DNA of 64,000 bases from a virus (IMGVR_UViG_3300025392_000640:37214-101213), one strand, 5' to 3'. Positions 45,658 to 59,049 are shown, numbered from the stretch's first letter. Notes: generated by a model not told the origin, from the letters alone. Numbers and translations: made by a program.

Positions 45658-45667
45658 ATATTTATCG

Positions 45668-45753: not shown

Positions 45754-45759
45754 AGTTTG

Positions 45760-46027: not shown

Positions 46028-46101
46028 CGGAACGTAGGGAACTCGAATCCCTGACCTCTACAGTGACAGTGTAGCATTCTAACCAACTGAACTAACGCTC
46101 C
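46028..46101 (-). tRNA. tRNA-Asp (GUC)
   Basis: Acceptor GGAGCGT/ACGTTCC, anticodon loop CTGTCAC. Confidence 0.8.
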
Positions 46102-46176
46102 GTAATTACTAATTCATCTTTATTTGCACCACCACGTCATGCGTAGGTTGACATATACCTCAATGAATTAGTTCTG

Positions 46177-46250
46177 AGCCTAAGGTGAGATTCGAACTCA
46201 CGACTCCGAAATTACAAATTTCGTACTCTGGCCAACTGAGTTACTCAGGC
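46177..46250 (-). tRNA. tRNA-Thr (UGU)
   Basis: Acceptor GCCTGAG/CTTAGGC, anticodon loop TTTGTAA. Confidence 0.8.
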
Positions 46251-46258
46251 TTATATTG

Positions 46259-46330
46259 TAGTCCCGAGCGGAATCGAACCGCCCTTTTCAGGATGAAAAC
46301 CTAACGTCCTAACCGATAGACGACGGGACC
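46259..46330 (-). tRNA. tRNA-Glu (UUC)
   Basis: Anticodon loop TTTTCAT, T-arm GGCGG-TTCGATT-CCGCT. Confidence 0.8.
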
Positions 46331-46350
46331 ATATTATTTAAAAGAACATT

Positions 46351-46384
46351 ACAAATATACGATAATTTTTTCAAACTACCAAAT
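46351..46384 (-). promoter_or_regulatory. Bacteroidetes-type promoter immediately upstream of tRNA-Glu and the downstream tRNA block
   Basis: acaaatatacgataattttttcaaactaccaaat. Confidence 0.55.
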
Positions 46385-46393
46385 TTGTTTTTG

Positions 46394-46482
46394 CGGAGAG
46401 CGGAGTATTCGAAACTCGCCCAACTTAATGGGTTCTCGTTTAGCAAACGAGCGGGGAACACCTTTGCCCTCCTTCACTCTCC
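46394..46482 (-). tRNA. tRNA-Ser (GCU)
   Basis: Acceptor GGAGAGT/GCTCTCC, anticodon loop TTGCTAA, long variable arm. Confidence 0.75.
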
Positions 46483-46484
46483 AA

Positions 46485-46559
46485 TGGTGTGACCGAAGAG
46501 AATCGAACTCTTACATAAAGTGCCACAAACTTTCGCCCTACCATTAGGCTACGGCCACC
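46485..46559 (-). tRNA. tRNA-His (GUG) with encoded G-1 and 3' CCA
   Basis: GGTGGCCG... 5' end (extra G-1), anticodon loop TTGTGGC, 3' ...CGGTCACACCA. Confidence 0.8.
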
Positions 46560-46565
46560 ATGTTG

Positions 46566-46640
46566 TAGCGTGAACAAGATTCGAACTTGTGTCTGAGCCT
46601 TATGAGAGCTCCGTAAGAAAACCAACTCTACCATCACGCT
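46566..46640 (-). tRNA. tRNA with CAU anticodon (Met/Ile2), second copy
   Basis: A1-U72 acceptor AGCGTGA/TCACGCT, anticodon loop CTCATAA. Confidence 0.75.
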
Positions 46641-46707
46641 ATTTGTGGAATTGAACCACCTTCCCAGCTTAATGCCGGGCGATACATCCAGTATCCTTCA
46701 CCGGTTG
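46641..46707 (-). ncRNA. Truncated tRNA-like fragment (T-arm plus anticodon-like hairpin, no 3' acceptor strand)
   Basis: GGTGGTTCAATTCCAC T-arm abuts the 5' end of the adjacent tRNA; hairpin CCCGG-CATTAAG-CTGGG. Confidence 0.3.
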
Positions 46708-46778
46708 AGGCGTGTATTGGAATCGAACCAATCTAAAAGGATTTGCAGTCCTCCACCTAGCCACTCGGACAACTCGCC
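46708..46778 (-). tRNA. tRNA-Cys (GCA)
   Basis: Acceptor GGCGAGT (one A-A mismatch), anticodon arm GAGGA-CTGCAAA-TCCTT, T-arm ATTGG-TTCGATT-CCAAT; overall similar to bacterial tRNA-Cys. Confidence 0.65.
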
Positions 46779-47321
46779 TTATCGGTTTAGTTTATTAATA
46801 CATTCATCTATCTTATCTCTCAATCTTCCGCCACGTCCAAAATCACCATCAACTTGTACATGCCTCCACATTGGAATACGATGTTTCATCCATTTGAACT
46901 CTGCACTCAATTTCATATCATCAATTGCAATCCAGTTACTAATCTTATTATCCTTAACCCATTTTACAATCTGATGTGCTCTCTCAAACTCTAAGGATGG
47001 ATTACTCATCTTATTCCAAATTCCCAGCTTTCTACTACTCATATGTGTTGTGATATCAATCAATGGAGCATGAATACCAAACTCAATAAATGTATCACTC
47101 ATTTGCCTAAGAGTAAAGTGCAACTTCCAATCTGATGATAATACTAATTCTGCATTAGTCTTGTCACAAATTTCTTGCAATGCTTCACAATCCTCTTTTA
47201 CTAATGGGTAAGGTATTGTAAACTCATTCATAGTATTTTCGTTTATCTTCACTTTACCATCATCCCATGTTGCCCAAGCTAATGGCCCATCAACATCAAT
47301 AAAAATAATTTTCTTTCTCAT
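46779..47321 (-). CDS. HAD-superfamily phosphatase-like protein (embedded in tRNA cluster)
   Basis: N-terminal IIFIDVDGPL (HAD motif I) and WIAIDD (motif IV-like). Confidence 0.55.
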   Translation of the reverse strand: MRKKIIFIDVDGPLAWATWDDGKVKINENTMNEFTIPYPLVKEDCEALQEICDKTNAELVLSSDWKLHFTLRQMSDTFIEFGIHAPLIDITTHMSSRKLGIWNKMSNPSLEFERAHQIVKWVKDNKISNWIAIDDMKLSAEFKWMKHRIPMWRHVQVDGDFGRGGRLRDKIDECINKLNR

Positions 47322-47347
47322 AACTTTAATTTTTAATTTTTTAATTG

Positions 47348-47421
47348 TACTCTCTAAGAGACTCGAACTCCTAACCCCTTCGTCCGTAGCGAAGTGCTCT
47401 AATCCATTGAGCTAAGAGAGC
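47348..47421 (-). tRNA. tRNA-Arg (ACG)
   Basis: Anticodon arm CTTCG-CTACGGA-CGAAG. Confidence 0.8.
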
Positions 47422-47427
47422 TATTTG

Positions 47428-47496
47428 CACGCAGTGAAGGAATCGAACCCTCTCGTAAAGATTTGGAGTCTTTTTAGCTACCATAGCCTACCACGT
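47428..47496 (-). tRNA. tRNA-Trp (CCA)
   Basis: A1-U72 acceptor ACGTGGT, anticodon arm AAAGA-CTCCAAA-TCTTT; short D region. Confidence 0.65.
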
Positions 47497-47503
47497 ATGT
47501 TTG

Positions 47504-47577
47504 TTGGAATAGCGAGATTCGAACTTGCCACCTTCTCGGTATCAGCGAGATGCTCTAACCAAATGAGCTATATTCCA
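47504..47577 (-). tRNA. tRNA-Ile (GAU)
   Basis: Acceptor TGGAATA/TATTCCA, anticodon loop CTGATAC. Confidence 0.75.
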
Positions 47578-47587
47578 ATTTTTAAAG

Positions 47588-47662
47588 TAGGGTAAAGAGG
47601 ACTCGAACCTCCACGATGTCTTGCTCCCAAAGCAAGCGGCCTAGCCATTGGCCCATTACCCT
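47588..47662 (-). tRNA. tRNA-Pro (UGG)
   Basis: Acceptor AGGGTAA/TTACCCT, anticodon loop TTTGGGA. Confidence 0.8.
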
Positions 47663-47668
47663 ATATTG

Positions 47669-47742
47669 TTCCCCCGGTAGGATTCGAACCTACAACCCAC
47701 CGGGTAAAAGCCGGTTACTCTAGCCAATTGAGCTACAAGGGA
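47669..47742 (-). tRNA. tRNA-Lys (UUU)
   Basis: Anticodon arm ACCGG-CTTTTAC-CCGGT, T-arm GTAGG-TTCGAAT-CCTAC. Confidence 0.8.
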
Positions 47743-47792
47743 TTCTTTTGTCACTCTTGTCACTTTCCATAATCATTGTTTTTAATTGTTAG

Positions 47793-47864
47793 TGGTAATG
47801 AGTGGAATCGAACCACTGCTACTAAGTCTTCAGCCTAGCGCTCTACCAACTGAGCTACATCACC
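47793..47864 (-). tRNA. tRNA-Phe (GAA)
   Basis: Acceptor GGTGATG/CATTACC, anticodon loop CTGAAGA. Confidence 0.85.
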
Positions 47865-47928
47865 TTGCCTTTTTTAGCGTTTTTGAATAGAACGCAAGGA
47901 CAGTACGACCTGAAAACTATTAGGGTTG

Positions 47929-48009
47929 TGGGAGTAAGAAGACTCGAACTTCTGAAGCCGATGGCGTTTGATTTACAGTCAAATGTGATTGCCGCTACAC
48001 GATACTCCC
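47929..48009 (-). tRNA. tRNA-Tyr (GUA)
   Basis: Acceptor GGGAGTA/TACTCCC, anticodon loop CTGTAAA, long variable arm. Confidence 0.8.
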
Positions 48010-48014
48010 AATTG

Positions 48015-48086
48015 TAGAAGTGGAGAATTATGATATCCCGTCCTCTTGGATGTAAGCCAAGCGCTCTCCCTCTGAGCTACACTTCT
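48015..48086 (-). tRNA. tRNA-Val (UAC) with non-canonical T-loop
   Basis: Perfect acceptor AGAAGTG/CACTTCT, D-arm GCTC-AGAGGGA-GAGC, anticodon loop CTTACAT; T-loop ATCATAA lacks TTC. Confidence 0.6.
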
Positions 48087-48114
48087 ATTTTCCACAATGT
48101 CAAAGAACCAAATG

Positions 48115-48187
48115 CGTTAGTGATAGGATTCGAACCTATGGCCACTTGATTAACAGTCAAGAGCTCTACCAGCTGAGCTACACCAAC
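48115..48187 (-). tRNA. tRNA-Asn (GUU)
   Basis: Acceptor GTTGGTG/CACTAAC, anticodon loop CTGTTAA. Confidence 0.85.
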
Positions 48188-48199
48188 ATTTATTTACAA

Positions 48200-48247
48200 A
48201 CATCCCAAAAACAAAAAACCTCTAACTTTTTTATCGGTTAGAGGTCT
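48200..48247 (-). terminator. Rho-independent terminator (minus strand) just upstream of the tRNA cluster
   Basis: Hairpin cctctaac/gttagagg; minus strand has stem followed by TTTTTTGTTTTTGGG. Confidence 0.55.
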
Positions 48248-48261
48248 TTCAATATTGTTAT

Positions 48262-48430
48262 AAAATTTTACACTTTATCCCCAATTATCATCCTCTAACT
48301 TCGTACTAATATAATCCACTTTGCCTAAATTTGCTTGTGCCGGATTACTTATCGTACTAAACATACGAATCCCACACCATTCATTTCTCAATGTAGGTTG
48401 CGAACAATTTGTATGTAGTGTTAAAGTTTT
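48262..48430 (-). CDS. small hypothetical protein (below track threshold)
   Basis: ~55-codon minus ORF MKTLTLHTNCSQPTLRNEW... ending before the terminator. Confidence 0.3.
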
Positions 48431-48574
48431 CATCTTTGTTATGTTAATAAGTATATAATAATTTTATTTTCAGTTTTTTTAATTCTTATAAGCCTAAATC
48501 GGGAAGTATATTGCTATACTCCCCTCTCTAAGTTGTAATAAAAATTAAGATATGAAACGAACAACCTTTCAGTT

Positions 48575-48665
48575 GTTAGTAGAGCGGGACCAATGATTCG
48601 AACATCATCCTCTCACCTGGTCGGTAAGTGTGCTACCATTACACCAATTCCGCTTATGTGGAAAG
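48575..48665 (-). ncRNA. tRNA-like/pseudo-tRNA (T-arm TGATG-TTCGAAT-CATTG, acceptor with mismatch, aberrant anticodon loop)
   Basis: Hand fold; a degenerate partial copy of its 5' half (gtgtgctac.attacac) recurs at 48915-48950. Confidence 0.3.
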
Positions 48666-49902
48666 TTTTTCGAGTTGGAGAGGAACTTTCCGAGCGCTGC
48701 CGAAACCCCATAATACATTTTCGTATTGATTACTTTGCTTTAAGCCTTTTACAGCTTTGGCGAAATCCAATCTAAACCACATTAGGCTTCCTACTTTTAA
48801 GTTTCTAGTTTAAGTCCCAAACCAACTTGCTCTCACTAATGCGAACACAATGTTAAACAGACTACGATGAGCGGTTAAAGGTTCTGCCCCCCTCCTCTCC
48901 ACTGGAATGTGAAGTGTGCTACTATTACACTAAAACCGCTTATAAATGGATGAGAATACTCCAATGGGTGATTCAGCTTTAGAAGGATTATTGAGTTCCC
49001 TTCGTTTCCACTTCCTTTTGAGAAGTACCAAATCAATGCAGGTCATTATAGATAACCACTCTTAAAGTTGTAACTTACTCACCTATTACTCCCCTTATTC
49101 AATCCTGCCGAACTGATTCAACCTTGCGGGTCTATAAGCTTTTCGTAGATATCACATCCGCCTTGCGAGCGTTTGTGGCTGGGAACAACTCCCAACTATG
49201 TATGCACCTTTCGGTTACAACTGATGAACACTTTTGCTTTATGTTTATTTATAGTTTTTTACGCCGAAGTAAAAATAAAGTTTTGGTTCGTAGATTGATT
49301 CAGGTAGCGGTTCATCACCAGCTCTGTCCCCTTTTGAAGAACAGAATACTATACTACCCAATGCGTTATCTCAACGCCATACTTCAAGTCATCTTCATCA
49401 ATAGGGATTGGTGTCCCACATTGAAGGATAGTAACGGCACCACCCGTACACAGTCTTACCTTACGTCTTTTCAGATAGCTTGGTGTTAAGACCACTTTGG
49501 TATTGAATCACGCAATAGTAAAAAGGGATTAGCTTTTTATATCTTACATAAATCCTATGAGTTATTCTTATTGCTGTTCCCAGCTCAACTAAGGAATCTA
49601 CAGTTCCCTAGTCATCCCAACTCGTCAATGATAGTGTTACCCCCACCTACAAAGCCAGAATGATATCTCACTTGCCTACTCAAGCTCATAAGTCCACAGA
49701 CCTATAAACCGCAGAATGTTTAACCAAACATCCCACTTTATCCTACTTTCGTAGTTTATTTAACGACCATAGGCGGCCGTTTGTTCACTATATAACACAA
49801 GGTTATTATGTGAAGTATTTTTAATAATTTAAAGAACTAATTTGATTCTCAATTTTGTTTTCTGGTCAAACCAATCAACTACTTTATTTTTGAATCTTAG
49901 TA

Positions 49903-50337
49903 AAGATACGAAGAATATTTTATTCCACCAAATCTTTTTTTATTTTTGTTGAAACATTTTCGGCTGTGTTTACTTACACCATTTATACTTCCTACTTCTG
50001 AATCAACTTAGTAAAGATACGATAAATTTTTCAATCTACCAAATCTTTTTTTAACTTATTGATAATCAACAAGTTAGTTAAGATATCCGGCTTTCTTCCC
50101 TATTGGATAGGTCACTCAATCGGTTTTATTATTGATGGCTTCAACCTTAACTTTGTTAAAGATACGATAAATATTTCAATCTACCAAATCTTTTTTTGTT
50201 GCGGGGGATGGATTCGAACCACCGACCTAAAGGTTATGAGCCTTCCGAGCTACCTCTGCTCTACCCCACGATATATAAAGAACTTTTATCTCTTTTGATT
50301 TAATCAAAGATACGAATAAATTCCGAATCTACCAAAT
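49903..50337 (-). promoter_or_regulatory. Array of four tandem promoter copies (49903-49933, 50013-50044, 50157-50189, 50305-50337) interleaved with palindromic elements and a tRNA
   Basis: taaagatacgaagaat...ccaccaaat; taaagatacgataaat...ctaccaaat (twice); caaagatacgaataaa...ctaccaaat. Confidence 0.55.
50199..50270 (-). tRNA. Initiator-type tRNA-fMet (CAU)
   Basis: C1-A72 mismatch; CGTGGGGTAGAGCAG...CTCATAA...GGTCGGTGGTTCGAATCCATCCCCCGCAA closely parallels bacterial tRNA-fMet. Confidence 0.75.
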
Positions 50338-50431: not shown

Positions 50432-51133
50432 TTACTTATTTTTTGAAAGCATTGCTACCAATGATGTAGCTGCTTTTTTAACAGGACTTTTATCATCATA
50501 TTTCAAAGCGGATGTCACTTTGATATCTTTACCTGTAATTGGATTTCTAACTGTTTTGTTAGCTATATCCTTTGGTAACGATGATGCTAATTTAGCCATA
50601 TCAGGTTGTTTTGCTTTTTGCCCAACACCTCTCTTAAATGTAAATGTACTCTTAGGTCCACTTTTCATTTTAGAATAAGCCTGTTGAATTGTATCAGGAT
50701 GCATTTTACCCATATTTTCGGTATGGCCATCTCTATATAATAAGAAAGCGTTTCCCTTTGTTTGTTCACCAGCATATAATACTGAATCTTGTCCGTATTT
50801 ATTACCAAGTTCATGTGCATCTTTAATACTGATATTAGGAACAAAGAAAGATTCTTCGATACTATCTTTTAATTTTTCTTCAGGACATTGTGCATAATTC
50901 ATATTAGAATCCGTACATTCTCTCCATCTTCCTTCAACTTTAAAGAAACCAAGTCCTTTACCTCTAAGGTCAGATTCCAATTTCTTATTAAGTTCTCTAT
51001 TTTCCTTTGGAGTGTTCAAATATCTAAATGCAGTCATCATCGCCCAACTTGTAGTATTCTTTTGCTGTTGTACGTGTTGATATACTCTACTTAAAGAGGC
51101 TTCATCTAAATTATGTATTTTACAATTTCCCAT
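50432..51133 (-). CDS. hypothetical protein
   Basis: 233-aa ORF. Confidence 0.5.
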   Translation of the reverse strand: MGNCKIHNLDEASLSRVYQHVQQQKNTTSWAMMTAFRYLNTPKENRELNKKLESDLRGKGLGFFKVEGRWRECTDSNMNYAQCPEEKLKDSIEESFFVPNISIKDAHELGNKYGQDSVLYAGEQTKGNAFLLYRDGHTENMGKMHPDTIQQAYSKMKSGPKSTFTFKRGVGQKAKQPDMAKLASSLPKDIANKTVRNPITGKDIKVTSALKYDDKSPVKKAATSLVAMLSKNK

Positions 51134-51702: not shown

Positions 51703-52029
51703 TTAATTTAATGATTTTTGTAACTTTTGTATCTCCGCACATTTTTCATATGCTTCAATCTCAATCATATATTCCATCAACCTATCTAAAGTTTGGTCTA
51801 TATCTTCTTTTGAAATACTAAAATCAACAATCAATCCCGGTTGTACATCTTTTAACTTTGCTGGTTCTTTTGGTTTAGTAACTAACTTAAGAATTATTTT
51901 ATTTTTTGATTTACTTTCAATAAAATCAAAAACATTATCATAGATACTATCCATTATAATACCTCTATTCTCCTCTGCCCAATCTCTAATCGGAGTACCT
52001 GGTTCTATGTATATCTTTTTAGCTGCCAA
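51703..52029 (-). CDS. hypothetical protein
   Basis: 108-aa ORF. Confidence 0.45.
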   Translation of the reverse strand: MAAKKIYIEPGTPIRDWAEENRGIIMDSIYDNVFDFIESKSKNKIILKLVTKPKEPAKLKDVQPGLIVDFSISKEDIDQTLDRLMEYMIEIEAYEKCAEIQKLQKSLN

Positions 52030-52612
52030 TTTTTTGCTTATTGATTCGTTTTTCTAGTTCTCTTTTTATACTAGCTTCTCTCATTTTAAGCTTTGTTTCT
52101 TCTGAGAATGGTTTTCTTTTTTTACCTAGTTTAGATAATGATATATTCAGTTTGTGTTCTTCTGTATATTTTTTGCCTAATTTAGATTTTGTTAATTTTT
52201 CTAAATGTTCTGGTGATAATTTATATTCTCTATTTTTATTGGAAAAGCGAATTGCTTCTTTATTAGCTTCGCTCATTATTTTACCTTTATGTATTTTAGA
52301 TAGTTTTAATCTAGTTTCTAATGAAGGATTGAGATGTCCATCACCACCATCGGTTTTATTCACTAATGTACCAGTTTCTAAATCAATTCTTCCGTATTCT
52401 AATATTAATTGAACTTCCTTTTTACATGCAGTTTCCCAATCTAGCCCATCTTCTATAATTTCAACTATATATCCAACTTTATTAACAACTTTCTGCCAAT
52501 GGTTATTTCTTCCTCTTTTACTATAAGCTCTTTGATATTTAGAATCACTACCAATACCAATATAAAATACTTCGTTGCTATCTTTTCTTATATGTTTATA
52601 GATATATGCCAT
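52019..52612 (-). CDS. GIY-YIG homing endonuclease with NUMOD3-like repeats
   Basis: AYIYKHIRKDSNEVFYIGIGSD (GIY-YIG) and C-terminal repeated SPEHLEKLTKSKLGKKY / TEEHKLNISLSKLGKK / SEETKLKMREA modules. Confidence 0.8.
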   Translation of the reverse strand: MAYIYKHIRKDSNEVFYIGIGSDSKYQRAYSKRGRNNHWQKVVNKVGYIVEIIEDGLDWETACKKEVQLILEYGRIDLETGTLVNKTDGGDGHLNPSLETRLKLSKIHKGKIMSEANKEAIRFSNKNREYKLSPEHLEKLTKSKLGKKYTEEHKLNISLSKLGKKRKPFSEETKLKMREASIKRELEKRINKQKIGS

Positions 52613-52627
52613 ATTCTAGCATAAATA

Positions 52628-53254
52628 TTATATTTTGGGGAATAAAATGTTTTCCATAAAGTACTTAGCCTTATCTTCTCCAATTAAAGCTTTTAATGCT
52701 GAGAATGTTCTTGGATTAGTGGCCTGTATTGTACAATATTGATTTTGTTTCTCTATAATAGCTTCTTCATCGCCTTTCCTTTCCAACCAAAGTAAAGAAT
52801 TTAGATACCATTCGTATTTTTCCAACACCCATTTTTTAAATTCCAAAAATTCTTCCACACTTTCAGGTGCCATCATTATAAATCTATCACTAAATACAGT
52901 TGCCCATTGTGGTATAGGTTTGCGATTACCAATATTCATTCCATCATCAAATGGGTATTGATTAATACCGGGGCTTAAATCCATATATGCCCCAGTAATT
53001 TTTTTACCAGTGGTTATCACATCAAACCCAAAGATAGGTTCAGGAGACCACTTATGCGGAAAGGTAGTAAAGTGTAATACCTCTATCTTAGAATCCGAAT
53101 ATCTTTCAACATGCGCCATTCTGAATAAATCGGATGAAAATCTATGATTAGTCCAACCATAGTTTTCAGTTTCCATAGGTTCTAAACCCGGCGCTGTTGT
53201 AACTAAATCTAATAGCTCTTGTGCTATTGTATCTAACATTACTTTATTGTCCAT
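52628..53254 (-). CDS. Ferredoxin-dependent bilin reductase family protein (PcyA/PebA-like)
   Basis: FRMAHVE, VLHFTTFP, PIFGFDVI and AYMDLSP align with the conserved PcyA core motifs FRKMHLE, ILHCVMFP, PLFGCDIV and AIADLSP. Confidence 0.75.
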   Translation of the reverse strand: MDNKVMLDTIAQELLDLVTTAPGLEPMETENYGWTNHRFSSDLFRMAHVERYSDSKIEVLHFTTFPHKWSPEPIFGFDVITTGKKITGAYMDLSPGINQYPFDDGMNIGNRKPIPQWATVFSDRFIMMAPESVEEFLEFKKWVLEKYEWYLNSLLWLERKGDEEAIIEKQNQYCTIQATNPRTFSALKALIGEDKAKYFMENILFPKI

Positions 53255-53783
53255 CTATAATTGTTTGTAATTCATCAAAAATAGCCATATTAAAATCCAA
53301 TCCTTTATTAGCCTCATCAGCCCATTCATCTTTTTGGATTGCTCTAATAGTTCCAGCTACTTCTCTCATATCACCATCAAAGGTATATAATCTTCCACTA
53401 CCAGGCACATTCTTCTTCATCATTTGTCCACCAAACATAATAGCTAAGTAGTTCAAATAAATGTGAGGAAGTATATCTTCATCTGAAAGTCCTTTAAGGT
53501 AATCGCAATATGATTGTGTTGATTCTAATAATTGAATCTCTAATACCTGCCCTTCTTCTGCTTCAAATAATTCTTTAATATCTTCGTAAACCGCATCTAC
53601 TCTATTTAGTGATGGATGTGGTAGGGTTCTACTTTTTTCAATTGCATCAAATATTCCTAATTGTTGGCAAAGATGCGCAATATATTCTTCTTTAGTTAAT
53701 TCACCTTTAAACATTCTTTGGTTAAAAGGCTTTTGTTCAGCTTCTCTATGCTTATCGGCAATTGCTTCTTTAAGTGGTAACAT
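53244..53783 (-). CDS. ho1: Heme oxygenase
   Basis: LPLKEAIADKHREAEQKPFNQRMFKGELTKEEYIAHL and HIYLNYLAIMFGGQMMKK match the HO-1 family helices. Confidence 0.8.
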   Translation of the reverse strand: MLPLKEAIADKHREAEQKPFNQRMFKGELTKEEYIAHLCQQLGIFDAIEKSRTLPHPSLNRVDAVYEDIKELFEAEEGQVLEIQLLESTQSYCDYLKGLSDEDILPHIYLNYLAIMFGGQMMKKNVPGSGRLYTFDGDMREVAGTIRAIQKDEWADEANKGLDFNMAIFDELQTIIDGQ

Positions 53784-53863
53784 ATTTTTATAATTTAATT
53801 TTTAGATAATACTCTGCCTAGCCATACTAAATATAGCCCTAATAATAGAAAAATTTAGTTAAA

Positions 53864-54058
53864 CTAAAATTCTCCTTCTGTATGTACTGTGTTGTCATCC
53901 CAGCCATCTCTACCTGCCATTTTAGTTAAATCCTCCTCACTAAACAAATCTTCTCCTTTGTAATCAGGATGTTTTTCGTTCATGTAATCAAACCCTCTAA
54001 CCCATGCCCAGCTTAGTAACGCCATTGAAGCAACAACAAAAATAATAGCCACGACCAT
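53864..54058 (-). CDS. small membrane protein
   Basis: 64 aa with N-terminal TM. Confidence 0.4.
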   Translation of the reverse strand: MVVAIIFVVASMALLSWAWVRGFDYMNEKHPDYKGEDLFSEEDLTKMAGRDGWDDNTVHTEGEF

Positions 54059-54274
54059 TGTATATATTTTGTTTGTTTGTCTACTTCTTTTCGGACTTCT
54101 AGTCCCACTAACCTAACGCTTTTTCTTAAATAAATCTGATAATTTTTTACCTTCCTTTATTATATTTCCGTTATCATCCATTGTTGGTGCAATATACATA
54201 TGATATGCGATGAACAATCCACAAGCAATAAAACAAAGACCGATAATTGTAAATGTACCCATAACTATTAAATT

Positions 54275-54616
54275 TTAATTTTTCCAAATAACTTGTATTC
54301 CAACTATGCAAGCTGCCAATCCAATACAAATCAAAGTTTTTAATGTAAATGGTTCTTTAAACATTACCCAACTCATTGTACTGAAAGTAATAATACCAAT
54401 TCCAAATCCAATCAATCGGGATGGCCATAATTCACCACCATAATAATCAACTATATTAGTTACTGATTGAATGAACAACCACAATCCTAACATAGCAGTT
54501 AGATATACCAACCAAGGATATTGTTTATTCCATCCATATTTTACACTACCTTGCAATTGTAGGAAAGATAATATCTGTCCAGCCAAACCCCATAACATTC
54601 CGTATATTAATTTCAT
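54275..54616 (-). CDS. multi-pass membrane protein
   Basis: Track ORF 54275..54652 trimmed to the internal Met downstream of the promoter; 3-4 TM helices. Confidence 0.45.
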   Translation of the reverse strand: MKLIYGMLWGLAGQILSFLQLQGSVKYGWNKQYPWLVYLTAMLGLWLFIQSVTNIVDYYGGELWPSRLIGFGIGIITFSTMSWVMFKEPFTLKTLICIGLAACIVGIQVIWKN

Positions 54617-54621
54617 AGATA

Positions 54622-54653
54622 CAAAGATACGAAAAATATCTGATATTACCAAA
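54622..54653 (-). promoter_or_regulatory. Bacteroidetes-type promoter (variant -33)
   Basis: caaagatacgaaaaatatctgatattaccaaag. Confidence 0.5.
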
Positions 54654-55248
54654 GTTTATTTCCACCAAATCCACTACTTCCACTAATACCAGGTCCCGGC
54701 GAATATCCAGTTGGTTTAGAATAATGGGATGGACGTCTAACAATATCTTGCATTCTACTAATAAAGGATAGAATATCTCTTGTTACCGAATCACTACTTA
54801 AACCATTAGCTATTGTTTGTATAAAAATAGATGGATTAGATAAATGATTTTTAGTTATCGTAGTATTCAAATCATATGGTGTCATTTTATCATCATACTT
54901 TGGTGGTGGGAGTATCTTAATGTGCATATCCATATCATCGGTAAATAGGGTAACTCTTGAAAAAGGTTCTTTATCATCAATAGGGTGTACCCAAGCCGTA
55001 TATACATTACCTTCATCAATGTAATCAACATGAGTATGCATTATGATAAAACTAGCTCCCATCACATCAAATTTAGTACCAACTAATTTATCCCAATTTG
55101 ATATCTCTACAGTTTTTTTCTCATTCATATTTTTTTCTTTACCAATAGCATCGGCAAGTACACATGCTAAATGATTACCACCTATTAGGTACTCAATATC
55201 TACATCATATGTATCCTTACCGCAATATGTACAAATTACTTCTTTCAT
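54646..55248 (-). CDS. hypothetical protein
   Basis: 200-aa ORF. Confidence 0.45.
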   Translation of the reverse strand: MKEVICTYCGKDTYDVDIEYLIGGNHLACVLADAIGKEKNMNEKKTVEISNWDKLVGTKFDVMGASFIIMHTHVDYIDEGNVYTAWVHPIDDKEPFSRVTLFTDDMDMHIKILPPPKYDDKMTPYDLNTTITKNHLSNPSIFIQTIANGLSSDSVTRDILSFISRMQDIVRRPSHYSKPTGYSPGPGISGSSGFGGNKLW

Positions 55249-55607
55249 TACTTTATAATTCCATGTGGTATTGGTTTACCATCCTCATCAATTGATACAA
55301 ATACTATCTTATCTATTTTGATAATTGTTTTCTTTGTATCTTTATTTCTCACTTCACAAGCTATCGTTATTGATGTCCTTCCAAATTGAACTAACTCACA
55401 ACCTATCTCTATTATATCACCTAATTTAGCAGATGATACAAAGTTCACCTCACTCATTGCTTTAGTAACTATACTTCTAGTATTTAATTGACATATACAA
55501 AAGATAGCTGCTTCTTCATCAATCCATTTTAGTACTTGTCCGCCAAAGAGCGTTCCTCTTGCGTTTAAATCTTCGTACTTAATTAATTTTCGGGTTCTAA
55601 AGTTCAT
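55248..55607 (-). CDS. Hotdog-fold acyl-CoA thioesterase
   Basis: DLNARGTLFGGQVLKWIDEEAAI signature. Confidence 0.7.
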   Translation of the reverse strand: MNFRTRKLIKYEDLNARGTLFGGQVLKWIDEEAAIFCICQLNTRSIVTKAMSEVNFVSSAKLGDIIEIGCELVQFGRTSITIACEVRNKDTKKTIIKIDKIVFVSIDEDGKPIPHGIIK

Positions 55608-55842
55608 CGTTTAATCTTTTAATATCTACACAATCATCTTTACCAATATCATCAAATGATTTCCATTGAGTAAATTTCTTACCTACTCTTGGTAGGCTAT
55701 GGTGCTCTCTATGTCCACACCATTTACATTCTTTAACTACTACTCTAACAACATCCCTACCTAATGGATGTCCTTTACATTCATGCTTTTCCTTACGGTA
55801 TTCCCAGTTGTGGCAACCGATATAGCAAAAGGGGTTTATCAT
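55597..55842 (-). CDS. Cys/His-rich small protein
   Basis: 81 aa with CYIGCHNWEY...HECKGH...CKWCGHREHH. Confidence 0.4.
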   Translation of the reverse strand: MINPFCYIGCHNWEYRKEKHECKGHPLGRDVVRVVVKECKWCGHREHHSLPRVGKKFTQWKSFDDIGKDDCVDIKRLNDEL

Positions 55843-55852
55843 AATTTATATT

Positions 55853-57109
55853 TTAGTATCTATTGAATCCAATTGTTGGTCTACCTTTATCTTCACTCTT
55901 ATACTCAACCTCAGCCAAGTTATATATCTCCGTTAGGGTCATTGGTTTTGTAACTGTGTACTCATAACCCAAATGATTAACTAATGCTTGAGAATCTTCT
56001 ATTGGTAACGCCTCAAACTTATGTTCTGCAATCAATCTTCCTTTTCTTAGGAGGGCCTCATCAATCTTAGCTTTATCCATATTGAATGTTGCTACAATCT
56101 GAATGTTTAAGATATCACTTAAGATACCATCCGTAATGTTAAGGATATTTGATACTCCGTTACCACCACCATTTTGTCTATCCGTAATTACTCTTTCCGC
56201 ATCTTCAATGAATAGTACCGAACCTGCGTTTTGAATTAAGAATGGTGTCATCTCAGGCGATGTGATGAAATCTGCTAAGAATGGTGGAATGAATAGTACT
56301 CTTTTATTCTTAATCTTAGATGCTAAGTACTTTAAGTAGTGAGTCTTTCCAGTGCCAGGCGTTCCGTGCAATAGTACTAACCCTTTACTCTTAGGTTCAT
56401 TTAACTTATGTATAATCTTTTCGTGAATTGGTTTGAATGATTTACCATATCCCAATTCAATATCCAACTTCTGCTTTGGTAACTCAAAGGTTGTTGTATC
56501 ATAACCTCTATTTGTTTGTATTACTAAGGCAATATTGTTTTCTTTCTCTCTACGTTTTTTAGCCAACCCAGAGAATTGTTCTGTTACTTCATTAAAATCT
56601 TTTGGTGATGCATTTCCAGATAAACTAACATTAATACCTCTATCACTTCTATATGATTTCGTAACTGATGCTCCCCACTTCTTAGCAATACTATCTACCA
56701 TTAATAAGATAATACCATCCTTACATACTTTCTCAAATACTTTGTTTTGGAAATGACCGGAAGTCATATACATTTCCTTATTGAATATCTCAACAAATCC
56801 CAACTTAGGAATAAGTTCTAATGTAGGTTCTTGCTTAACTTGAAACTCATCTGAAATTCTAAAGTATGAAGATGCTGCTCTACCTGTTTTATTAGTTATG
56901 TACATACCAATTGGAAAATCATCGTAATCTGATGGCTTGTATGGTTGACCTGTTGTTACATTTGAGTTACCATCCGATGTCGAATCATTCATAATACTTT
57001 CTCTGATTGCTAACTTAACCTCATGCGGAAGGACTTCCAAATCATCCAATTCTAATAATGTTTCCAATTCCGATTCCGTCAATTTTCTAGGTGTTATTGG
57101 TTTCCCCAT
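55853..57109 (-). CDS. AAA+ ATPase
   Basis: Walker A LLHGTPGTGKTHYL and Walker B VLFIEDAE; ~200-aa N-terminal domain of unknown function. Confidence 0.75.
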   Translation of the reverse strand: MGKPITPRKLTESELETLLELDDLEVLPHEVKLAIRESIMNDSTSDGNSNVTTGQPYKPSDYDDFPIGMYITNKTGRAASSYFRISDEFQVKQEPTLELIPKLGFVEIFNKEMYMTSGHFQNKVFEKVCKDGIILLMVDSIAKKWGASVTKSYRSDRGINVSLSGNASPKDFNEVTEQFSGLAKKRREKENNIALVIQTNRGYDTTTFELPKQKLDIELGYGKSFKPIHEKIIHKLNEPKSKGLVLLHGTPGTGKTHYLKYLASKIKNKRVLFIPPFLADFITSPEMTPFLIQNAGSVLFIEDAERVITDRQNGGGNGVSNILNITDGILSDILNIQIVATFNMDKAKIDEALLRKGRLIAEHKFEALPIEDSQALVNHLGYEYTVTKPMTLTEIYNLAEVEYKSEDKGRPTIGFNRY

Positions 57110-57127
57110 TTTCTTTTATTTTGTTGA

Positions 57128-57160
57128 TTACAAATATACGATTAATTTCCAATTCCACCA
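57128..57160 (-). promoter_or_regulatory. Bacteroidetes-type promoter for the AAA+ gene; hairpin terminator at about 57163-57200
   Basis: acaaatatacgattaatttccaattccaccaaat. Confidence 0.55.
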
Positions 57161-57264
57161 AATAAAAAACTCCCTAATTTTATTATTAGAGAGTCTTTTT
57201 TTAAGTGTGTTTTAGATGTATTCCTTTTTTCTGATTTTGTTTTCTTGTAGCTTTAGCCATTCGA

Positions 57265-57486
57265 TTACGATTGTGTTTTTTGGATTCTTTCTTTGTCATT
57301 GTTACGAAGTTTTTTATTAAACCTATAACCCCTTACCAATTCACCAATCGATAATTTTAGAATAACATATATGTACCAAATCGTTACTATTGGTAACATA
57401 AATATAAGTATGCCTCCCAATATTATATGTGCTAAAACCTTTATTCCCATTTCTATTAAAGTGCAAATGATTCTCCACATCCACAT
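57265..57486 (-). CDS. small membrane protein
   Basis: 73-aa hydrophobic ORF. Confidence 0.35.
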   Translation of the reverse strand: MWMWRIICTLIEMGIKVLAHIILGGILIFMLPIVTIWYIYVILKLSIGELVRGYRFNKKLRNNDKERIQKTQS

Positions 57487-57788
57487 GTCCTACTAGCGTT
57501 TGGATTTTCCCATTGAAACCCTCTACCATTTAATCCATCCGAATAGGTAAGCTCAGTACCATATAAGTAAAGTACCGATTTTCTATCTATAACTACCTTC
57601 AATCCACCATCTACTTCTACAACTTCATCTGTAGGTTCTATCTTATCATCAAAATCCATTGTGTAAGATAATCCACTACAACCACCACCCTTAACACCCA
57701 CTCTTAGGTGATGTGTATCTGGCGTTATACCACCTTCCATCATAAGGGCTATAACATGGTTAAGTGCCTTTTCTGATAGAGTTACCAT
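57456..57788 (-). CDS. iscA: A-type Fe-S cluster carrier (IscA/HesB/SufA family)
   Basis: VGVKGGGCSGLSY and C-terminal CGCGESF. Confidence 0.85.
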   Translation of the reverse strand: MVTLSEKALNHVIALMMEGGITPDTHHLRVGVKGGGCSGLSYTMDFDDKIEPTDEVVEVDGGLKVVIDRKSVLYLYGTELTYSDGLNGRGFQWENPNASRTCGCGESFAL

Positions 57789-57789
57789 A

Positions 57790-58098
57790 TTACTCAGTTT
57801 CGTGATTCATATAATCTTCGAACTCTTTAGCTCCTTTAGGATTCACTTCCTTTAAATGCTCTAAAGATAATTCGTATCTACCATTCACCGATTGTAAGTT
57901 AAAGATTTCATCGTTAAGTGAATCAACTGCAGATTGCATATTCTCACCACTAAACTCAACTTCCTTACCATCTTCGGCTTTAATCTCAATCTTATCTCCA
58001 GCCTTATATTTCTTAATCACTTCGTTCTGCTTCCAAATTGTAAATAATAACAACCCACTGGCTGCTAATTGTAATAAACCATTGATGTACTTTTTCAT
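57790..58098 (-). CDS. membrane-anchored hypothetical protein
   Basis: 102 aa with N-terminal TM. Confidence 0.45.
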   Translation of the reverse strand: MKKYINGLLQLAASGLLLFTIWKQNEVIKKYKAGDKIEIKAEDGKEVEFSGENMQSAVDSLNDEIFNLQSVNGRYELSLEHLKEVNPKGAKEFEDYMNHETE

Positions 58099-58108
58099 CC
58101 GTTTCGTT

Positions 58109-58297
58109 TTATTTGTTATTAAACTTTTGTTCCTTATAAATTGCGTTAAGTACTTCCTTTCTTCTCTTTACAGAAGGTTTGGTAAATACTTGCCTATCTC
58201 TTAATTCTCTAACTACCCCTATCTTATTGTGTTTGTTTTTATACACCTTAAGGGCTTGTTCTATTGAGTTAAACTTTGTTGTATCTACTATTATCAT
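58109..58297 (-). CDS. hypothetical protein
   Basis: 62-aa ORF. Confidence 0.35.
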   Translation of the reverse strand: MIIVDTTKFNSIEQALKVYKNKHNKIGVVRELRDRQVFTKPSVKRRKEVLNAIYKEQKFNNK

Positions 58298-58704
58298 ACG
58301 TGCTTATCTTCAAATGTTAAAGGTTCTAATCCGTTCTTAGTTCTATAATCATTGATTGCTGCTTTGATAGCATCCTCAGCAAGTACCGAACAATGAATCT
58401 TAACGGGAGGTAAACATAACTCCTCAACTAAATCCATATTATCAATAGTTACGGCTTCATCTAAACTCTTTCCTTTCAACCATTCAGTTGCTAAAGAACT
58501 AGCTGCGATTGCCGAACCACATCCAAAGGTTTTGAACTTAGCATCCGTAATGATGTTATCCTCAACTTGGATTTGTAATCTCATCACATCACCACATTCA
58601 GGTGCTCCTACTAAGCCCGTACCTACATTTGGTTTACTTTTATCCAATGTTCCTACATTCTTAGGATTCTCATAATGTCCAATTACTTTTTCACTATACG
58701 CCAT
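58294..58704 (-). CDS. iscU: Fe-S cluster assembly scaffold IscU/NifU-like
   Basis: GAPECGDVMRL, FKTFGCGSAIAASS and PPVKIHCSVLAEDAI. Confidence 0.9.
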   Translation of the reverse strand: MAYSEKVIGHYENPKNVGTLDKSKPNVGTGLVGAPECGDVMRLQIQVEDNIITDAKFKTFGCGSAIAASSLATEWLKGKSLDEAVTIDNMDLVEELCLPPVKIHCSVLAEDAIKAAINDYRTKNGLEPLTFEDKHV

Positions 58705-58854
58705 AGTTTATTGTTTTTGATTTTTATAATATTCATATATTCCAATTCCCATTGTTAGTATGATGGCTTGTATTTTTAATAGTAGTAGTTTCATACCTAT
58801 AATTATTACTATCAAAAATTTTTAACCTACGACTCCCCCAAAGGGGTTCGTTCA

Positions 58855-59049
58855 CTAATCTCCGAATAGGTTTATACTAGCTAAACTCACTCCACCCTTA
58901 CCATCATCTGCGAATAGTTGTAATTCACCTGTTTGGGGATTAAACATTTTACGCTGAAGTAACTTTTTATCGGTTTCATCCAACGATTGAGATACTAATG
59001 CTCTATTTAGTTTTTCGAGTTCTTCTAACTGCTTTGGGTCTAATATCAT
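58855..59049 (-). CDS. hypothetical protein
   Basis: 64-aa ORF. Confidence 0.35.
   Translation of the reverse strand: MILDPKQLEELEKLNRALVSQSLDETDKKLLQRKMFNPQTGELQLFADDGKGGVSLASINLFGD

What the first reader, a model, noticed from the sequence alone, without database searches (positions are those of the whole stretch)
52628..58704. Iron, heme and pigment auxiliary metabolic gene block: heme oxygenase plus ferredoxin-dependent bilin reductase, with IscU and IscA nearby
Adjacent, overlapping genes encode a heme oxygenase (HO-1 family motifs) and an FDBR-family bilin reductase (the conserved PcyA-like core motifs). This pairing is known from cyanophages (ho1 with pebS or pcyA) and from PcyX-type genes in uncultured marine phages of non-photosynthetic hosts. 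About 4 kb further on, the phage also encodes an IscU scaffold and an A-type carrier. For a phage with Bacteroidetes-type promoters this looks like a heme-to-bilin conversion and Fe-S maturation kit, perhaps for iron liberation or for supplying ferredoxin and Fe-S for its own enzymes. A GIY-YIG/NUMOD3 homing endonuclease lies directly upstream (52019-52612).
Basis: partly seen in the sequence, partly recalled or inferred. Interest (0 to 1): 0.7.

Follow-up and report, generated by a model that had tools for sequence, protein, structure and literature searches.

The report
Phage heme-to-bilin genes plus Fe-S helpers
A large phage, probably of a Bacteroidota host, carries an overlapping heme oxygenase and bilin reductase gene pair (predicted to turn heme into biliverdin and then a phycocyanobilin-type pigment, freeing iron), with IscU and an Fe-S carrier 4-5 kb away; every part is a known kind of phage auxiliary gene, but this lineage is uncharacterised.

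Summary
On the minus strand, a 179-aa heme oxygenase (53244-53783) overlaps by 11 nt a 208-aa ferredoxin-dependent bilin reductase (52628-53254). A true IscU (58294-58704) and an A-type Fe-S carrier (57456-57788) lie 4-5 kb away.

The reductase keeps the full PcyA catalytic triad (Glu50/His61/Asp78). PcyX has Asp at the first site, and pre-PcyA lacks the His. Its closest characterised relative is the phycocyanobilin-making PcyA of freshwater phage CB_2 (39% identity). The oxygenase is 34% identical to the active CB_2 HemO. Both lack the canonical distal Asp.

The pair sits in a well-supported metagenomic clade of its own, on contigs up to about 278 kb. No close homologue was found in one genome per bacterial and archaeal species.

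No Shine-Dalgarno use, A-rich leaders, TAnnTTTG boxes and a Tyr54 bS21 point to a Bacteroidota host.

The link to IscU/IscA rests on co-occurrence within this phage lineage only. The window holds no ferredoxin gene, though two relatives have one beside IscU.

Verdict: a new member of the known phage hemO-pcyA/X cassette. The Fe-S "kit" idea is plausible but unproven.

The parts
53244..53783 (-). Heme oxygenase, 179 aa, a short form. Proximal His12, Glu16, and distal helix LAIMFGGQ (Gly118-Gly119).
   Evidence: PF01126, 54.2 bits against a cut-off of 23. AF2 pLDDT 87.7. Foldseek TM 0.78-0.83 to HmuO, Synechocystis HO-1 and rat HO-1. 34% identical to the active CB_2 phage vHemO. More than 1100 metagenomic relatives.
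52628..53254 (-). Ferredoxin-dependent bilin reductase, 208 aa, of PcyA type. His48, Glu50, His61 and Asp78 correspond to Synechocystis PcyA His74, Glu76, His88 and Asp105.
   Evidence: PF05996, 73.8 bits against a cut-off of 31. Residue mapping. AF2 pLDDT 89.8. Foldseek TM 0.87 to PcyA 2g18. 38.9% identical to CB_2 vPcyA.
53244..53254 (-). 11-nt overlap between the HO stop and the FDBR start, suggesting translational coupling.
   Evidence: ORF coordinates. The two genes also abut or overlap in L002, L012, L030 and Pelagibacter phage Mosig.
52019..52612 (-). Free-standing homing endonuclease (GIY-YIG/NUMOD3-like) inserted at the 3' end of the FDBR gene.
   Evidence: PHROG 314, E 1e-20. Present only in the window and L003 among syntenic relatives. 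Junction anatomy and the 29-codon duplication in L003.
51703..52029 (-). Conserved 108-aa gene of unknown function that directly follows the FDBR in the closer relatives (L001, L003-L009).
   Evidence: tblastn synteny. No Pfam hit.
58294..58704 (-). IscU Fe-S scaffold, 136 aa. Cys37, Asp39, Cys63, LPPVK, His105 and Cys106 are all present.
   Evidence: TIGR01999, 212.4 bits against a cut-off of 192.4. About 77% identical to H. influenzae IscU 1q48 (my count from the alignment).
57456..57788 (-). A-type Fe-S carrier (IscA/ErpA/SufA family), 110 aa. Cys37 and Cys102-Gly-Cys104.
   Evidence: PF01521. TIGR00049, 109 bits against a cut-off of 58.8, but below every equivalog cut-off. Nearest solved structure is HI1723.
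58109..58297 (-). Ribosomal protein bS21, 62 aa, with Tyr54. It lies between IscU and the carrier. It is part of the syntenic block and is probably unrelated to heme or iron.
   Evidence: PF01165 and TIGR00030 above their cut-offs. Absent from several relatives.
55248..57109 (-). Genes between the two modules that are conserved in the syntenic block: a hotdog-fold thioesterase (55248-55607), an 81-aa ORF, and an AAA ATPase (55853-57109). No known link to heme or Fe-S.
   Evidence: Pfam 4HBT and AAA. Synteny.

Best explanation
The overlapping pair is a two-enzyme heme-breakdown module of the known phage hemO-pcyA/X kind.

**Steps inferred from homology and active-site residues**
1. The HO binds host heme b through His12 and cleaves it, using O2 and electrons. 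This gives biliverdin IXalpha, CO and free Fe2+.
2. The FDBR takes the biliverdin and reduces it with four electrons from reduced ferredoxin. Because it keeps the PcyA-specific Glu together with the His/Asp pair, the predicted product is phycocyanobilin, not phycoerythrobilin.
3. Electrons must come from a host ferredoxin, since the window encodes none.

**Physiological reading (inferred, weaker, about 0.4)**
- The predicted host is a non-photosynthetic Bacteroidota cell. The benefit selected for is therefore more likely heme turnover and iron release than pigment supply. The reductase would keep the oxygenase turning over by removing its product.
- IscU and the A-type carrier are separate, already known phage auxiliary genes that boost Fe-S assembly. 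They may use that iron, but a direct link is not shown.
For: **Gene identity and fold**
- Pfam, NCBIfam and PHROG hits.
- Confident AF2 models with PcyA-like and HO-like folds.

**Active sites**
- Glu50/His61/Asp78 align with PcyA Glu76/His88/Asp105 in a pairwise alignment and in three multiple alignments. They are invariant in the family.
- According to PMC10151467, Glu76 is specific to PcyA and needed for 18-vinyl reduction.

**Closest characterised enzymes**
- CB_2 phage vPcyA: 38.9% identity, E 1e-52. The paper shows it makes PCB.
- CB_2 vHemO: 34% identity. The paper shows it makes BV IXalpha.

**Coupling and selection**
- Abutting or overlapping HO-FDBR pairs occur in every relative examined.
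- Natural FDBR-HO and HO-FDBR fusion proteins exist.
- Strong conservation across hundreds of metagenomic homologues.

**Host type**
-, with the Tyr54 criterion from PMC9723584.

**Fe-S genes**
- IscU and carrier motifs are intact.
Against: - No activity data exist for this clade.
- The FDBR scores far below NCBI's PcyA equivalog cut-off (80.9 against 206). It lies outside the cyanobacterial PcyA clade, which has 99.5% bootstrap support.
- Its deep placement relative to PcyX and to alpha-proteobacterial/CB_2 PcyA is unresolved.
- FDBR regiospecificity is known to be plastic (PMC13446030 abstract), so the product could differ from PCB.
- The HO lacks the Gly139-Asp140 pair of canonical HO-1. 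The active CB_2 vHemO also lacks the Asp.
- The window has no ferredoxin and no cysteine desulfurase.
- The host is inferred, not shown. IscU is of the type nearest gamma-proteobacterial and mitochondrial IscU, which sits oddly with a Bacteroidota host.
Confidence: 0.6

Rival explanations
1. An integrated iron-recycling kit. HO/FDBR strip iron from host heme specifically to load the phage IscU and A-type carrier. These build Fe-S clusters for phage enzymes or for the ferredoxin that powers HO and FDBR.
For: - IscU, the carrier and HO-FDBR co-occur within about 10 kb in the window and in L001, L004-L009, L012 and L015. They also co-occur in a different order in the more distant L030.
- Two relatives (L001, L006) carry a 4Fe-4S ferredoxin gene directly after IscU.
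- An iron-supply role has been discussed for such cassettes (PMC11480375).
Against: - About ten unrelated genes separate the two modules.
- Co-occurrence among phages with 55-90% identical proteins is expected from common descent.
- L002 shows the pair with no IscU/IscA in 7 kb upstream or 10 kb downstream.
- Mosig has the cassette beside a ferrochelatase and 2OG oxygenases, with no IscU.
- IscU and carrier genes occur in many phages without HO.
- The window has no ferredoxin and no desulfurase.
Confidence: 0.25
2. The reduced bilin itself is the selected product. It could be a chromophore or ligand for a host or phage bilin-binding protein (a phytochrome-like sensor or a globin-type binder), or an antioxidant or regulator.
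For: - The reductase is strictly retained with the oxygenase, even as fusion proteins. This would not be needed if iron alone mattered.
- CB_2 vPcyA product can assemble a working phytochrome (PMC11480375).
- Pre-PcyA clusters carry bilin-binding globins (PMC10151467).
Against: - No phytochrome, globin, lyase or other recognisable bilin binder was found among the neighbours.
- The only gene that always follows the FDBR in close relatives has no detectable family and is not kept in L002 or L030.
- The predicted host type has no phycobiliproteins (established knowledge).
Confidence: 0.2
3. The FDBR has a different regiospecificity. It could be PcyX-like (PEB via 15,16-DHBV), pre-PcyA-like (3E-phytochromobilin or PEB), or something new.
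For: - The best solved-structure match by sequence is PcyX 5owg (E 2.8e-16).
- Deep tree nodes are unresolved: CB_2 or Bradyrhizobium PcyA joins the window before PcyX in only 42% of bootstrap replicates.
- The family is known for plastic product profiles.
Against: - Glu occupies the PcyA Glu76 site, not the PcyX Asp55 residue.
- His88 is kept, unlike pre-2 (Asn) and pre-3 (Thr); pre-1 lacks all three residues.
- Both characterised non-cyanobacterial enzymes with Glu-His-Asp (CB_2, Bradyrhizobium ORS278) are described in PMC11480375 as PCB-producing PcyA enzymes.
Confidence: 0.2
4. Host takeover by heme removal. The pair lowers the host heme pool, or detoxifies free heme released during infection. 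Neither iron nor bilin is the point.
For: Only the general chemistry of the pair. Other phage cassettes sit beside heme-synthesis genes such as alaS and ferrochelatase, which shows that phages tune the tetrapyrrole pool.
Against: - Nothing in the window or its relatives speaks to this directly.
- Phages that add heme synthesis genes to the same cassette seem to raise tetrapyrrole flux, not lower it.
Confidence: 0.08

Closest known systems
vHemO-vPcyA cassette of the freshwater 'Crystal Bog' phage CB_2 (Nat Commun 2024, PMC11480375)
   Same: - A short HO next to a roughly 207-aa FDBR with the Glu-His-Asp triad, in a large freshwater phage whose proposed host (Methylocystis) is non-photosynthetic.
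- It is the nearest characterised relative of both window proteins (39% and 34% identity).
- Its HO also lacks the distal Asp.
   Different: - CB_2 is proposed to infect an alpha-proteobacterial methanotroph, and its cassette goes with a viral alaS.
- No ORF of 90 aa or more in the window matched an alaS-like family in Pfam.
- The window's host signals are Bacteroidota-like.
- The window clade is separate (95% bootstrap for its own 15-member clade).
PhiHemO-PhiPcyX cassette of marine phages (PDB 5OWG; Pelagibacter phage Mosig)
   Same: - An overlapping short HO plus FDBR (14-nt overlap in Mosig).
- These are the best cultured-phage hits for both window proteins.
   Different: - PcyX has Asp at the Glu76 site and makes PEB. 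The window enzyme has Glu.
- The Mosig HO keeps the canonical Gly-Asp. The window HO has Ala-Ile.
- Identity is only 26-30%.
Cyanophage ho1 with pcyA or pebS
   Same: The same two-step chemistry carried as phage auxiliary genes. The PcyA triad is shared with cyanophage PcyA.
   Different: - 23-29% identity.
- The window lies outside the cyanobacterial/cyanophage PcyA clade.
- In PMC11480375, pebS is described as combining two host enzymes in one polypeptide to make PEB.
- Cyanophage hosts have phycobilisomes that use the pigment. Here they probably do not.
Alpha-proteobacterial 'AX' PcyA (Bradyrhizobium ORS278 hemO-pcyA-alaS island; Acetobacteraceae)
   Same: A Glu-His-Asp PcyA outside cyanobacteria. 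These were the best matches in the bacterial genome scan.
   Different: - Only 28-32% identity.
- Cellular, not phage.
- In Bradyrhizobium it is linked to a phytochrome gene.
Pre-PcyA clusters of heterotrophic bacteria (PMC10151467, PMC13446030)
   Same: An FDBR of the PcyA branch in non-photosynthetic organisms, often with an HO and an Fe-S protein nearby.
   Different: - Pre-PcyA enzymes lack Glu76 and His88, and do not make PCB. The window enzyme has both residues.
- No V4R or globin partner genes were found here.
Phage-encoded IscU and A-type carrier auxiliary genes (e.g. marine viral genomes, PMC5332604)
   Same: IscU of the gamma-proteobacterial type and an A-type carrier carried by large tailed phages, thought to support Fe-S proteins during infection.
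   Different: That paper does not mention heme at all (0 occurrences). Here both sets sit in one conserved 6-kb block.

Membership tests
Ferredoxin-dependent bilin reductase (PF05996) | Pfam score above the gathering cut-off | tested here: met
   73.8 bits against 31, E 2.1e-20, covering residues 31-206.
Ferredoxin-dependent bilin reductase (PF05996) | FDBR alpha/beta/alpha sandwich fold | tested here: met
   AF2 pLDDT 89.8. Foldseek TM 0.86-0.87 to PcyA. Lower-ranked hits to PcyX, PebA, PebB, PebS and HY2.
PcyA (phycocyanobilin:ferredoxin oxidoreductase) | Catalytic Glu76, His88 and Asp105 (Synechocystis numbering) | tested here: met
   These are Glu50, His61 and Asp78. They are invariant in 32 family members and align the same way in four alignments.
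PcyA (phycocyanobilin:ferredoxin oxidoreductase) | Score above the NCBIfam equivalog cut-off (NF002760) | tested here: not met
   80.9 bits against a cut-off of 206. The model is built on cyanobacterial-type PcyA.
PcyA (phycocyanobilin:ferredoxin oxidoreductase) | Branches with characterised PcyA enzymes | tested here: inconclusive
   Outside the cyanobacterial clade (99.5% bootstrap). The NJ tree places it with CB_2 and Bradyrhizobium PcyA, but the deep nodes have under 10% support.
PcyA (phycocyanobilin:ferredoxin oxidoreductase) | Four-electron reduction of biliverdin IXalpha to phycocyanobilin | not testable with these tools
   Needs an enzyme assay. The nearest assayed relative (CB_2 vPcyA, 39% identity) makes PCB.
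PcyX (phage PEB synthase) | Asp55 at the position of PcyA Glu76 | tested here: not met
   The window has Glu50. The PcyX clade shows mainly Asp, Ser or Asn there, with a few Gln, Lys or Glu.
Pre-PcyA (pre-1, pre-2, pre-3) | Glu76 absent and His88 replaced (Asn in pre-2, Thr in pre-3, all three residues absent in pre-1) | tested here: not met
   Both residues are present. No pre-PcyA sequences were available for the tree.
Canonical heme oxygenase (PF01126, HO-1/HmuO type) | Pfam score above the cut-off and the all-helical HO fold | tested here: met
   54.2 bits against 23. AF2 pLDDT 87.7. TM 0.78-0.83 to HmuO, Synechocystis HO-1 and rat HO-1.
Canonical heme oxygenase (PF01126, HO-1/HmuO type) | Proximal heme-ligating His, with its Glu partner | tested here: met
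   His12 and Glu16 align with the proximal His and Glu of the HO-2 and Synechocystis HO-1 chains. They are invariant in 31 relatives.
Canonical heme oxygenase (PF01126, HO-1/HmuO type) | Distal-helix Gly-Asp...Gly-Gly (human Gly139, Asp140, Gly143, Gly144) | tested here: not met
   Gly118-Gly119 are kept, but Gly139-Asp140 are Ala114-Ile115. The biochemically active CB_2 vHemO has Gly-Tyr here, so the Asp is not required in this phage group.
Canonical heme oxygenase (PF01126, HO-1/HmuO type) | Heme cleavage to biliverdin IXalpha, CO and iron | not testable with these tools
   Needs an assay.
IscU scaffold | NCBIfam TIGR01999 cut-off, three cluster Cys, Asp39, His105 and the LPPVK motif | tested here: met
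   212.4 bits against 192.4. All motifs are visible in the alignment to 1q48.
A-type Fe-S carrier (IscA/SufA/ErpA) | TIGR00049 cut-off and the Cys...Cys-Gly-Cys ligands | tested here: met
   109.3 bits against 58.8. Cys37 and Cys102-Gly-Cys104. It falls below the cut-offs for IscA, ErpA and SufA equivalogs, so the subtype is open.
Free-standing homing endonuclease (GIY-YIG/NUMOD3) | Family match, plus presence/absence polymorphism at a fixed site | tested here: met
   PHROG 314, E 1e-20. Present in the window and L003, absent from L001 and L004-L009 at the same junction. L003 shows a 29-codon target duplication. NUMOD3 is just below its cut-off, and no Pfam GIY-YIG hit was returned.

The most novel reading that the evidence does not exclude
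A lineage of jumbo phages of Bacteroidota runs a self-reinforcing heme-iron recycling line.
- A non-canonical HO (with no distal Asp) and a PcyA-type reductase strip iron from host heme.
- Phage IscU and an A-type carrier turn that iron into Fe-S clusters.
- Those clusters mature the ferredoxin that powers both heme enzymes. In some relatives that ferredoxin is phage-encoded, right next to IscU.

A second novel reading is that this uncharacterised FDBR clade makes a bilin other than PCB.
Probability: 0.15. Interest if true: 0.7.

Novelty: new member of a known kind. Interest (0 to 1): 0.4.

Why it matters
- Phage hemO-FDBR cassettes in non-photosynthetic hosts are an open puzzle: nobody knows why such a phage would make a phycobilin.
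- This window adds a large, abundant, untested clade. It has hundreds of FDBR relatives and more than a thousand HO relatives in metagenomes, on contigs up to about 278 kb.
- The host is probably a Bacteroidota cell. The enzymes are PcyA-type, and the pair sits in a conserved block with Fe-S assembly genes.
- That makes the iron-release hypothesis concretely testable with a defined gene set: HO, FDBR, IscU, the carrier, and the ferredoxin of relatives.
- On its own, though, the window is another member of a cassette described in 2016 and 2024, not a new kind of system.

Tried and rejected
- **Megablast against phages.** A search of 52000-59000 against 50,697 phage records found nothing.
- **Source contig.** An exact look-up of the window FDBR in the contig index found nothing, so the source sample is unknown. 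Cluster look-ups gave no accessions or organisms.
- **Genome scan.** A broad 42-sequence alignment could not seed the scan. A narrower one worked, but returned hits of only 32% identity or less. These were Acetobacteraceae PcyA, PcyX-type genes on MAG contigs that look like mis-binned phage DNA, and one MAG contig (L017) with a Glu-His-Asp FDBR.
- **Ferredoxin search.** Cys-motif scans of all six frames found no ferredoxin, thioredoxin or rubredoxin motif; the only matches were four generic paired-CxxC motifs in three ORFs. A tblastn search with the ferredoxin of L001 hit nothing in the window.
- **Promoters and terminators.** Sigma-70 promoter and terminator scans showed no enrichment.
- **Phylogeny.** NJ bootstraps could not resolve the deep placement. 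No ML program was available.
- **Classifications rejected.** Pre-PcyA, PcyX and PebS identities were rejected on active-site residues.
- **Pseudogene or decaying gene.** Rejected because of family-wide conservation.
- **Heme-oxygenase-like diiron oxidase.** Considered for the HO. It was not formally tested beyond the Pfam HO hit, the proximal His/Glu and the Gly-Gly motif.
- **Chen et al. 2022 bS21 phage clades.** The window shares GC content (about 31%), tRNA count (25) and Tyr54. In those phages bS21 sits in the structural module, not between IscU and IscA, so identity with them is not established.

Full report
**What is there**

All long ORFs in the window run on the minus strand. GC is about 31%.

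- The ORF at 53244-53783 (179 aa) is a heme oxygenase (HO): PF01126, 54.2 bits against a cut-off of 23.
- The HO stop and the FDBR start overlap by 11 nt.
- At 58294-58704 lies an IscU that passes NCBI's curated IscU cut-off (212 against 192 bits). It keeps Cys37, Asp39, Cys63, LPPVK, His105 and Cys106.
- At 57456-57788 lies an A-type Fe-S carrier with its Cys...Cys-Gly-Cys ligands.
- Between the two modules lie a ribosomal protein bS21, an AAA ATPase, a hotdog thioesterase and several small ORFs with no family.
- The ORF at 52019-52612 matches a phage homing-endonuclease family.

Two details need correcting. The endonuclease is downstream of the FDBR in the direction of transcription. The HO lacks the canonical distal Gly-Asp.

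**The reductase**

By sequence, the closest solved structure is PcyX 5owg (E 2.8e-16), followed by PcyA. An AlphaFold model (pLDDT 89.8) matches PcyA best by fold, with TM 0.87.

In a pairwise alignment and in three multiple alignments, Glu50, His61 and Asp78 fall on Synechocystis PcyA Glu76, His88 and Asp105. His48 falls on His74. All are invariant in 32 family members.

The literature gives this signature a clear meaning:
- Glu76 is specific to PcyA and is needed for 18-vinyl reduction.
- Pre-PcyA enzymes lack Glu76 and His88.
- PcyX lacks Glu76 (PMC10151467) and has Asp55 instead.
- A freshwater phage enzyme without that Asp is a true PcyA that makes phycocyanobilin (PMC11480375).

I took that enzyme's sequence from the paper's supplement. 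It is 38.9% identical to the window FDBR over 203 residues (E 1e-52). That makes it the nearest characterised relative. Bradyrhizobium PcyA is at 32%, PcyX at about 30% and cyanobacterial PcyA at 23-28%.

**Where it sits in the family**

- A word-indexed search found 229 relatives. The 120 listed are 54-96% identical, and none carries a functional name.
- An exhaustive search of 1.84 billion cluster representatives found 220 FDBR-like proteins, forming a continuum.
- A neighbour-joining tree puts the window in its own clade, with 93-95% bootstrap support.
- The window lies outside the cyanobacterial/cyanophage PcyA clade, which has 99.5% support.
- With a Peb outgroup, the window groups with the other non-cyanobacterial Glu-His-Asp enzymes (Acetobacteraceae, Bradyrhizobium, CB_2), as sister to PcyX. 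These deep nodes have almost no bootstrap support. I claim only the active-site class and the nearest neighbour, not a resolved clade.
- A scan of one genome per bacterial and archaeal species returned nothing above 32% identity, and no Bacteroidota genome. The gene looks like a long-standing phage gene, not a recent host pick-up.

**The oxygenase**

- The model (pLDDT 87.7) has the HO fold, with TM 0.78-0.83 to HmuO, Synechocystis HO-1 and rat HO-1.
- His12 and Glu16 align with the proximal His and its Glu partner. Gly118-Gly119 align with the distal Gly-Gly.
- The canonical Gly139-Asp140 pair is Ala114-Ile115. From general knowledge of human HO-1, loss of Asp140 abolishes oxygenase activity, so this was a concern.
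- The CB_2 phage vHemO is 34% identical to the window HO and was shown to make biliverdin IXalpha. It has Gly-Tyr at this site. The Asp is therefore not required in this group.
- The HO of Pelagibacter phage Mosig (26% identical) keeps Gly-Asp.
- More than 1100 metagenomic relatives exist.

**Coupling of the two genes**

- The HO and FDBR genes abut or overlap in every relative read. These include distant ones where the flanking genes differ (L002, L030) and Mosig.
- Among the cluster representatives are natural FDBR-HO fusions (P0282, P0295, P0309, P0313, P0328) and HO-FDBR fusions (P0311, P0370).
- This is good evidence that the two proteins work together.

**Context and the Fe-S genes**

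- The block runs IscU, (ferredoxin), bS21, ORF, carrier, AAA, thioesterase, then HO, FDBR, ORF and SAM lyase.
- It is syntenic in an ENA contig (L001) and in IMG/VR and JGI contigs of up to 274 kb. One HO cluster (P0126) is recorded on a contig of 278 kb. This is a family of jumbo phages.
- In L030, whose FDBR is 59% identical, IscU and the carrier lie 5.5-7 kb on the other side of the pair.
- In L002 neither gene is within reach.
- Mosig has a ferrochelatase and 2OG oxygenases next to the pair instead, and no IscU.
- Phage IscU and A-type carrier genes are known auxiliary genes in their own right (PMC5332604).
- The association with HO-FDBR is therefore specific to this lineage. Common descent could explain it, so a functional link is possible but not shown.
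- The window has no ferredoxin. L001 and L006 have a 4Fe-4S ferredoxin directly after IscU.

**Host**

- Only 8 of 133 genes have a Shine-Dalgarno core upstream (6%, against a 9.5% background).
- Leaders are A-rich, with 78% A at position -12.
- TAnnTTTG, the Bacteroidetes -7 box, occurs 14 times on the coding strand of intergenic DNA against 4.8 +/- 2.0 expected. Twelve of these lie 5-56 nt before a gene start.
- Sigma-70 sites are not enriched.
- The bS21 has Tyr54, as in Flavobacterium johnsoniae and in bS21 phages of Bacteroidetes (PMC9723584).
- The best phage hits for bS21 are uncultured phages of 630-735 kb.
- These signals fit a Bacteroidota host. I put that at about 0.65. There is no CRISPR or other direct link.

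**How it most likely works**

1. The HO cleaves host heme to biliverdin IXalpha, CO and Fe2+.
2. The FDBR reduces biliverdin, most likely to phycocyanobilin, with electrons from a host ferredoxin.
3. In a host without phycobiliproteins, the likely gain is heme turnover and iron, with the reductase clearing the oxygenase's product.

The biochemical steps are inferred from homology to assayed enzymes and from intact active sites. The physiological role is inference only. Rival readings are set out separately: an integrated Fe-S kit, the bilin as the real product, another regiospecificity, and heme depletion.

**Novelty**

- hemO-pcyX cassettes in phages of non-photosynthetic hosts, a PCB-making phage PcyA from fresh water, and phage IscU and carrier genes have all been described already.
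- A full-text search for papers combining heme oxygenase, bilin reductase, phage and Flavobacteri* found none.
- What is new here is a well-separated and abundant clade, the probable host phylum, and the conserved neighbourhood.
- I file it as a new member of a known kind, of moderate interest.

Noticed in passing
window 52019-52628; L001 10540-10660; L003 10560-11360: The homing endonuclease sits inside the last codons of the FDBR gene. In L001 the FDBR ends ...LFPQIGS*, with the next gene's TTG start inside it. In the window the endonuclease ends ...KQKIGS*, re-using that end, and the FDBR has a new end, LFPKI*. In L003 the endonuclease gene is flanked by two copies of the last 29 FDBR codons.
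   Followed up: partly
L001 2959-4386: The IscU gene of the closest long relative encodes 475 aa. An insert of about 340 aa sits exactly at the cluster ligand Cys63 (FKTFGC|VVSN...THN|CGSAIA), which has the look of an intein.
   Followed up: partly
L001 4398-4706; L006 1412-1714: A 102-aa 4Fe-4S ferredoxin (FdxA-like, below curated cut-offs) lies directly after IscU in two relatives. It is absent from the window, where IscU and bS21 overlap.
   Followed up: yes
window 11686-13173 and 39003-40514: There are two flavin-dependent tryptophan-halogenase-family genes (PF04820, E 2e-113 and 2.5e-94). One is next to a cyclophilin (13173-13607). The other is next to a SET-domain protein (38569-39003).
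   Followed up: no
window 43594-50270: An array of 25 tRNA genes on the minus strand, with anticodons for all 20 amino acids. It coincides with the local GC rise to 37-41%.
   Followed up: no
window 58109-58297: Phage ribosomal protein bS21 with Tyr54, placed between IscU and the Fe-S carrier. In the published bS21 phages of Bacteroidetes it sits in the structural module. It is missing from several syntenic relatives.
   Followed up: partly
P0282, P0295, P0309, P0313, P0328 (FDBR-HO); P0311, P0370 (HO-FDBR); P0276: Natural single-chain fusions of the bilin reductase and the heme oxygenase exist in metagenomes, in both orders. P0276 (410 aa) carries an unrelated C-terminal half of about 200 aa.
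   Followed up: partly
window 18047-19093, 25270-25734, 25734-26525: The window holds a T4-type RNA ligase 1, a cyclic-phosphate-processing receiver domain (cREC_REC) and a calcineurin-like phosphoesterase. The same three families lie near the HO-FDBR pair in L002. This may be an RNA-repair set.
   Followed up: no
window 50432-51133: An S-adenosylmethionine lyase family gene (PF23780) is conserved 1.5-3 kb downstream of the FDBR in all close relatives.
   Followed up: no
window, whole: Genes lack Shine-Dalgarno motifs and have A-rich leaders. TAnnTTTG boxes are enriched in intergenic DNA on the coding strand, while sigma-70 consensus sites are not enriched.
   Followed up: yes
window 55853-57109: The C-terminal two-thirds of the AAA ATPase is 36% identical to an ATPase of PA5oct-like Pseudomonas jumbo phages, and 36-43% identical to ATPases of Xanthomonas and Stenotrophomonas jumbo phages.
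   Followed up: no
L019, L022, L025, L026, L028, L029: PcyX-type genes (Asp at the Glu76 site) sit on contigs binned into MAGs of Verrucomicrobiota, Anaerolineales, Neomarinimicrobiota, Halobacteroidaceae and Rickettsiales. They are most likely phage contigs mis-binned into bacterial genomes.
   Followed up: no
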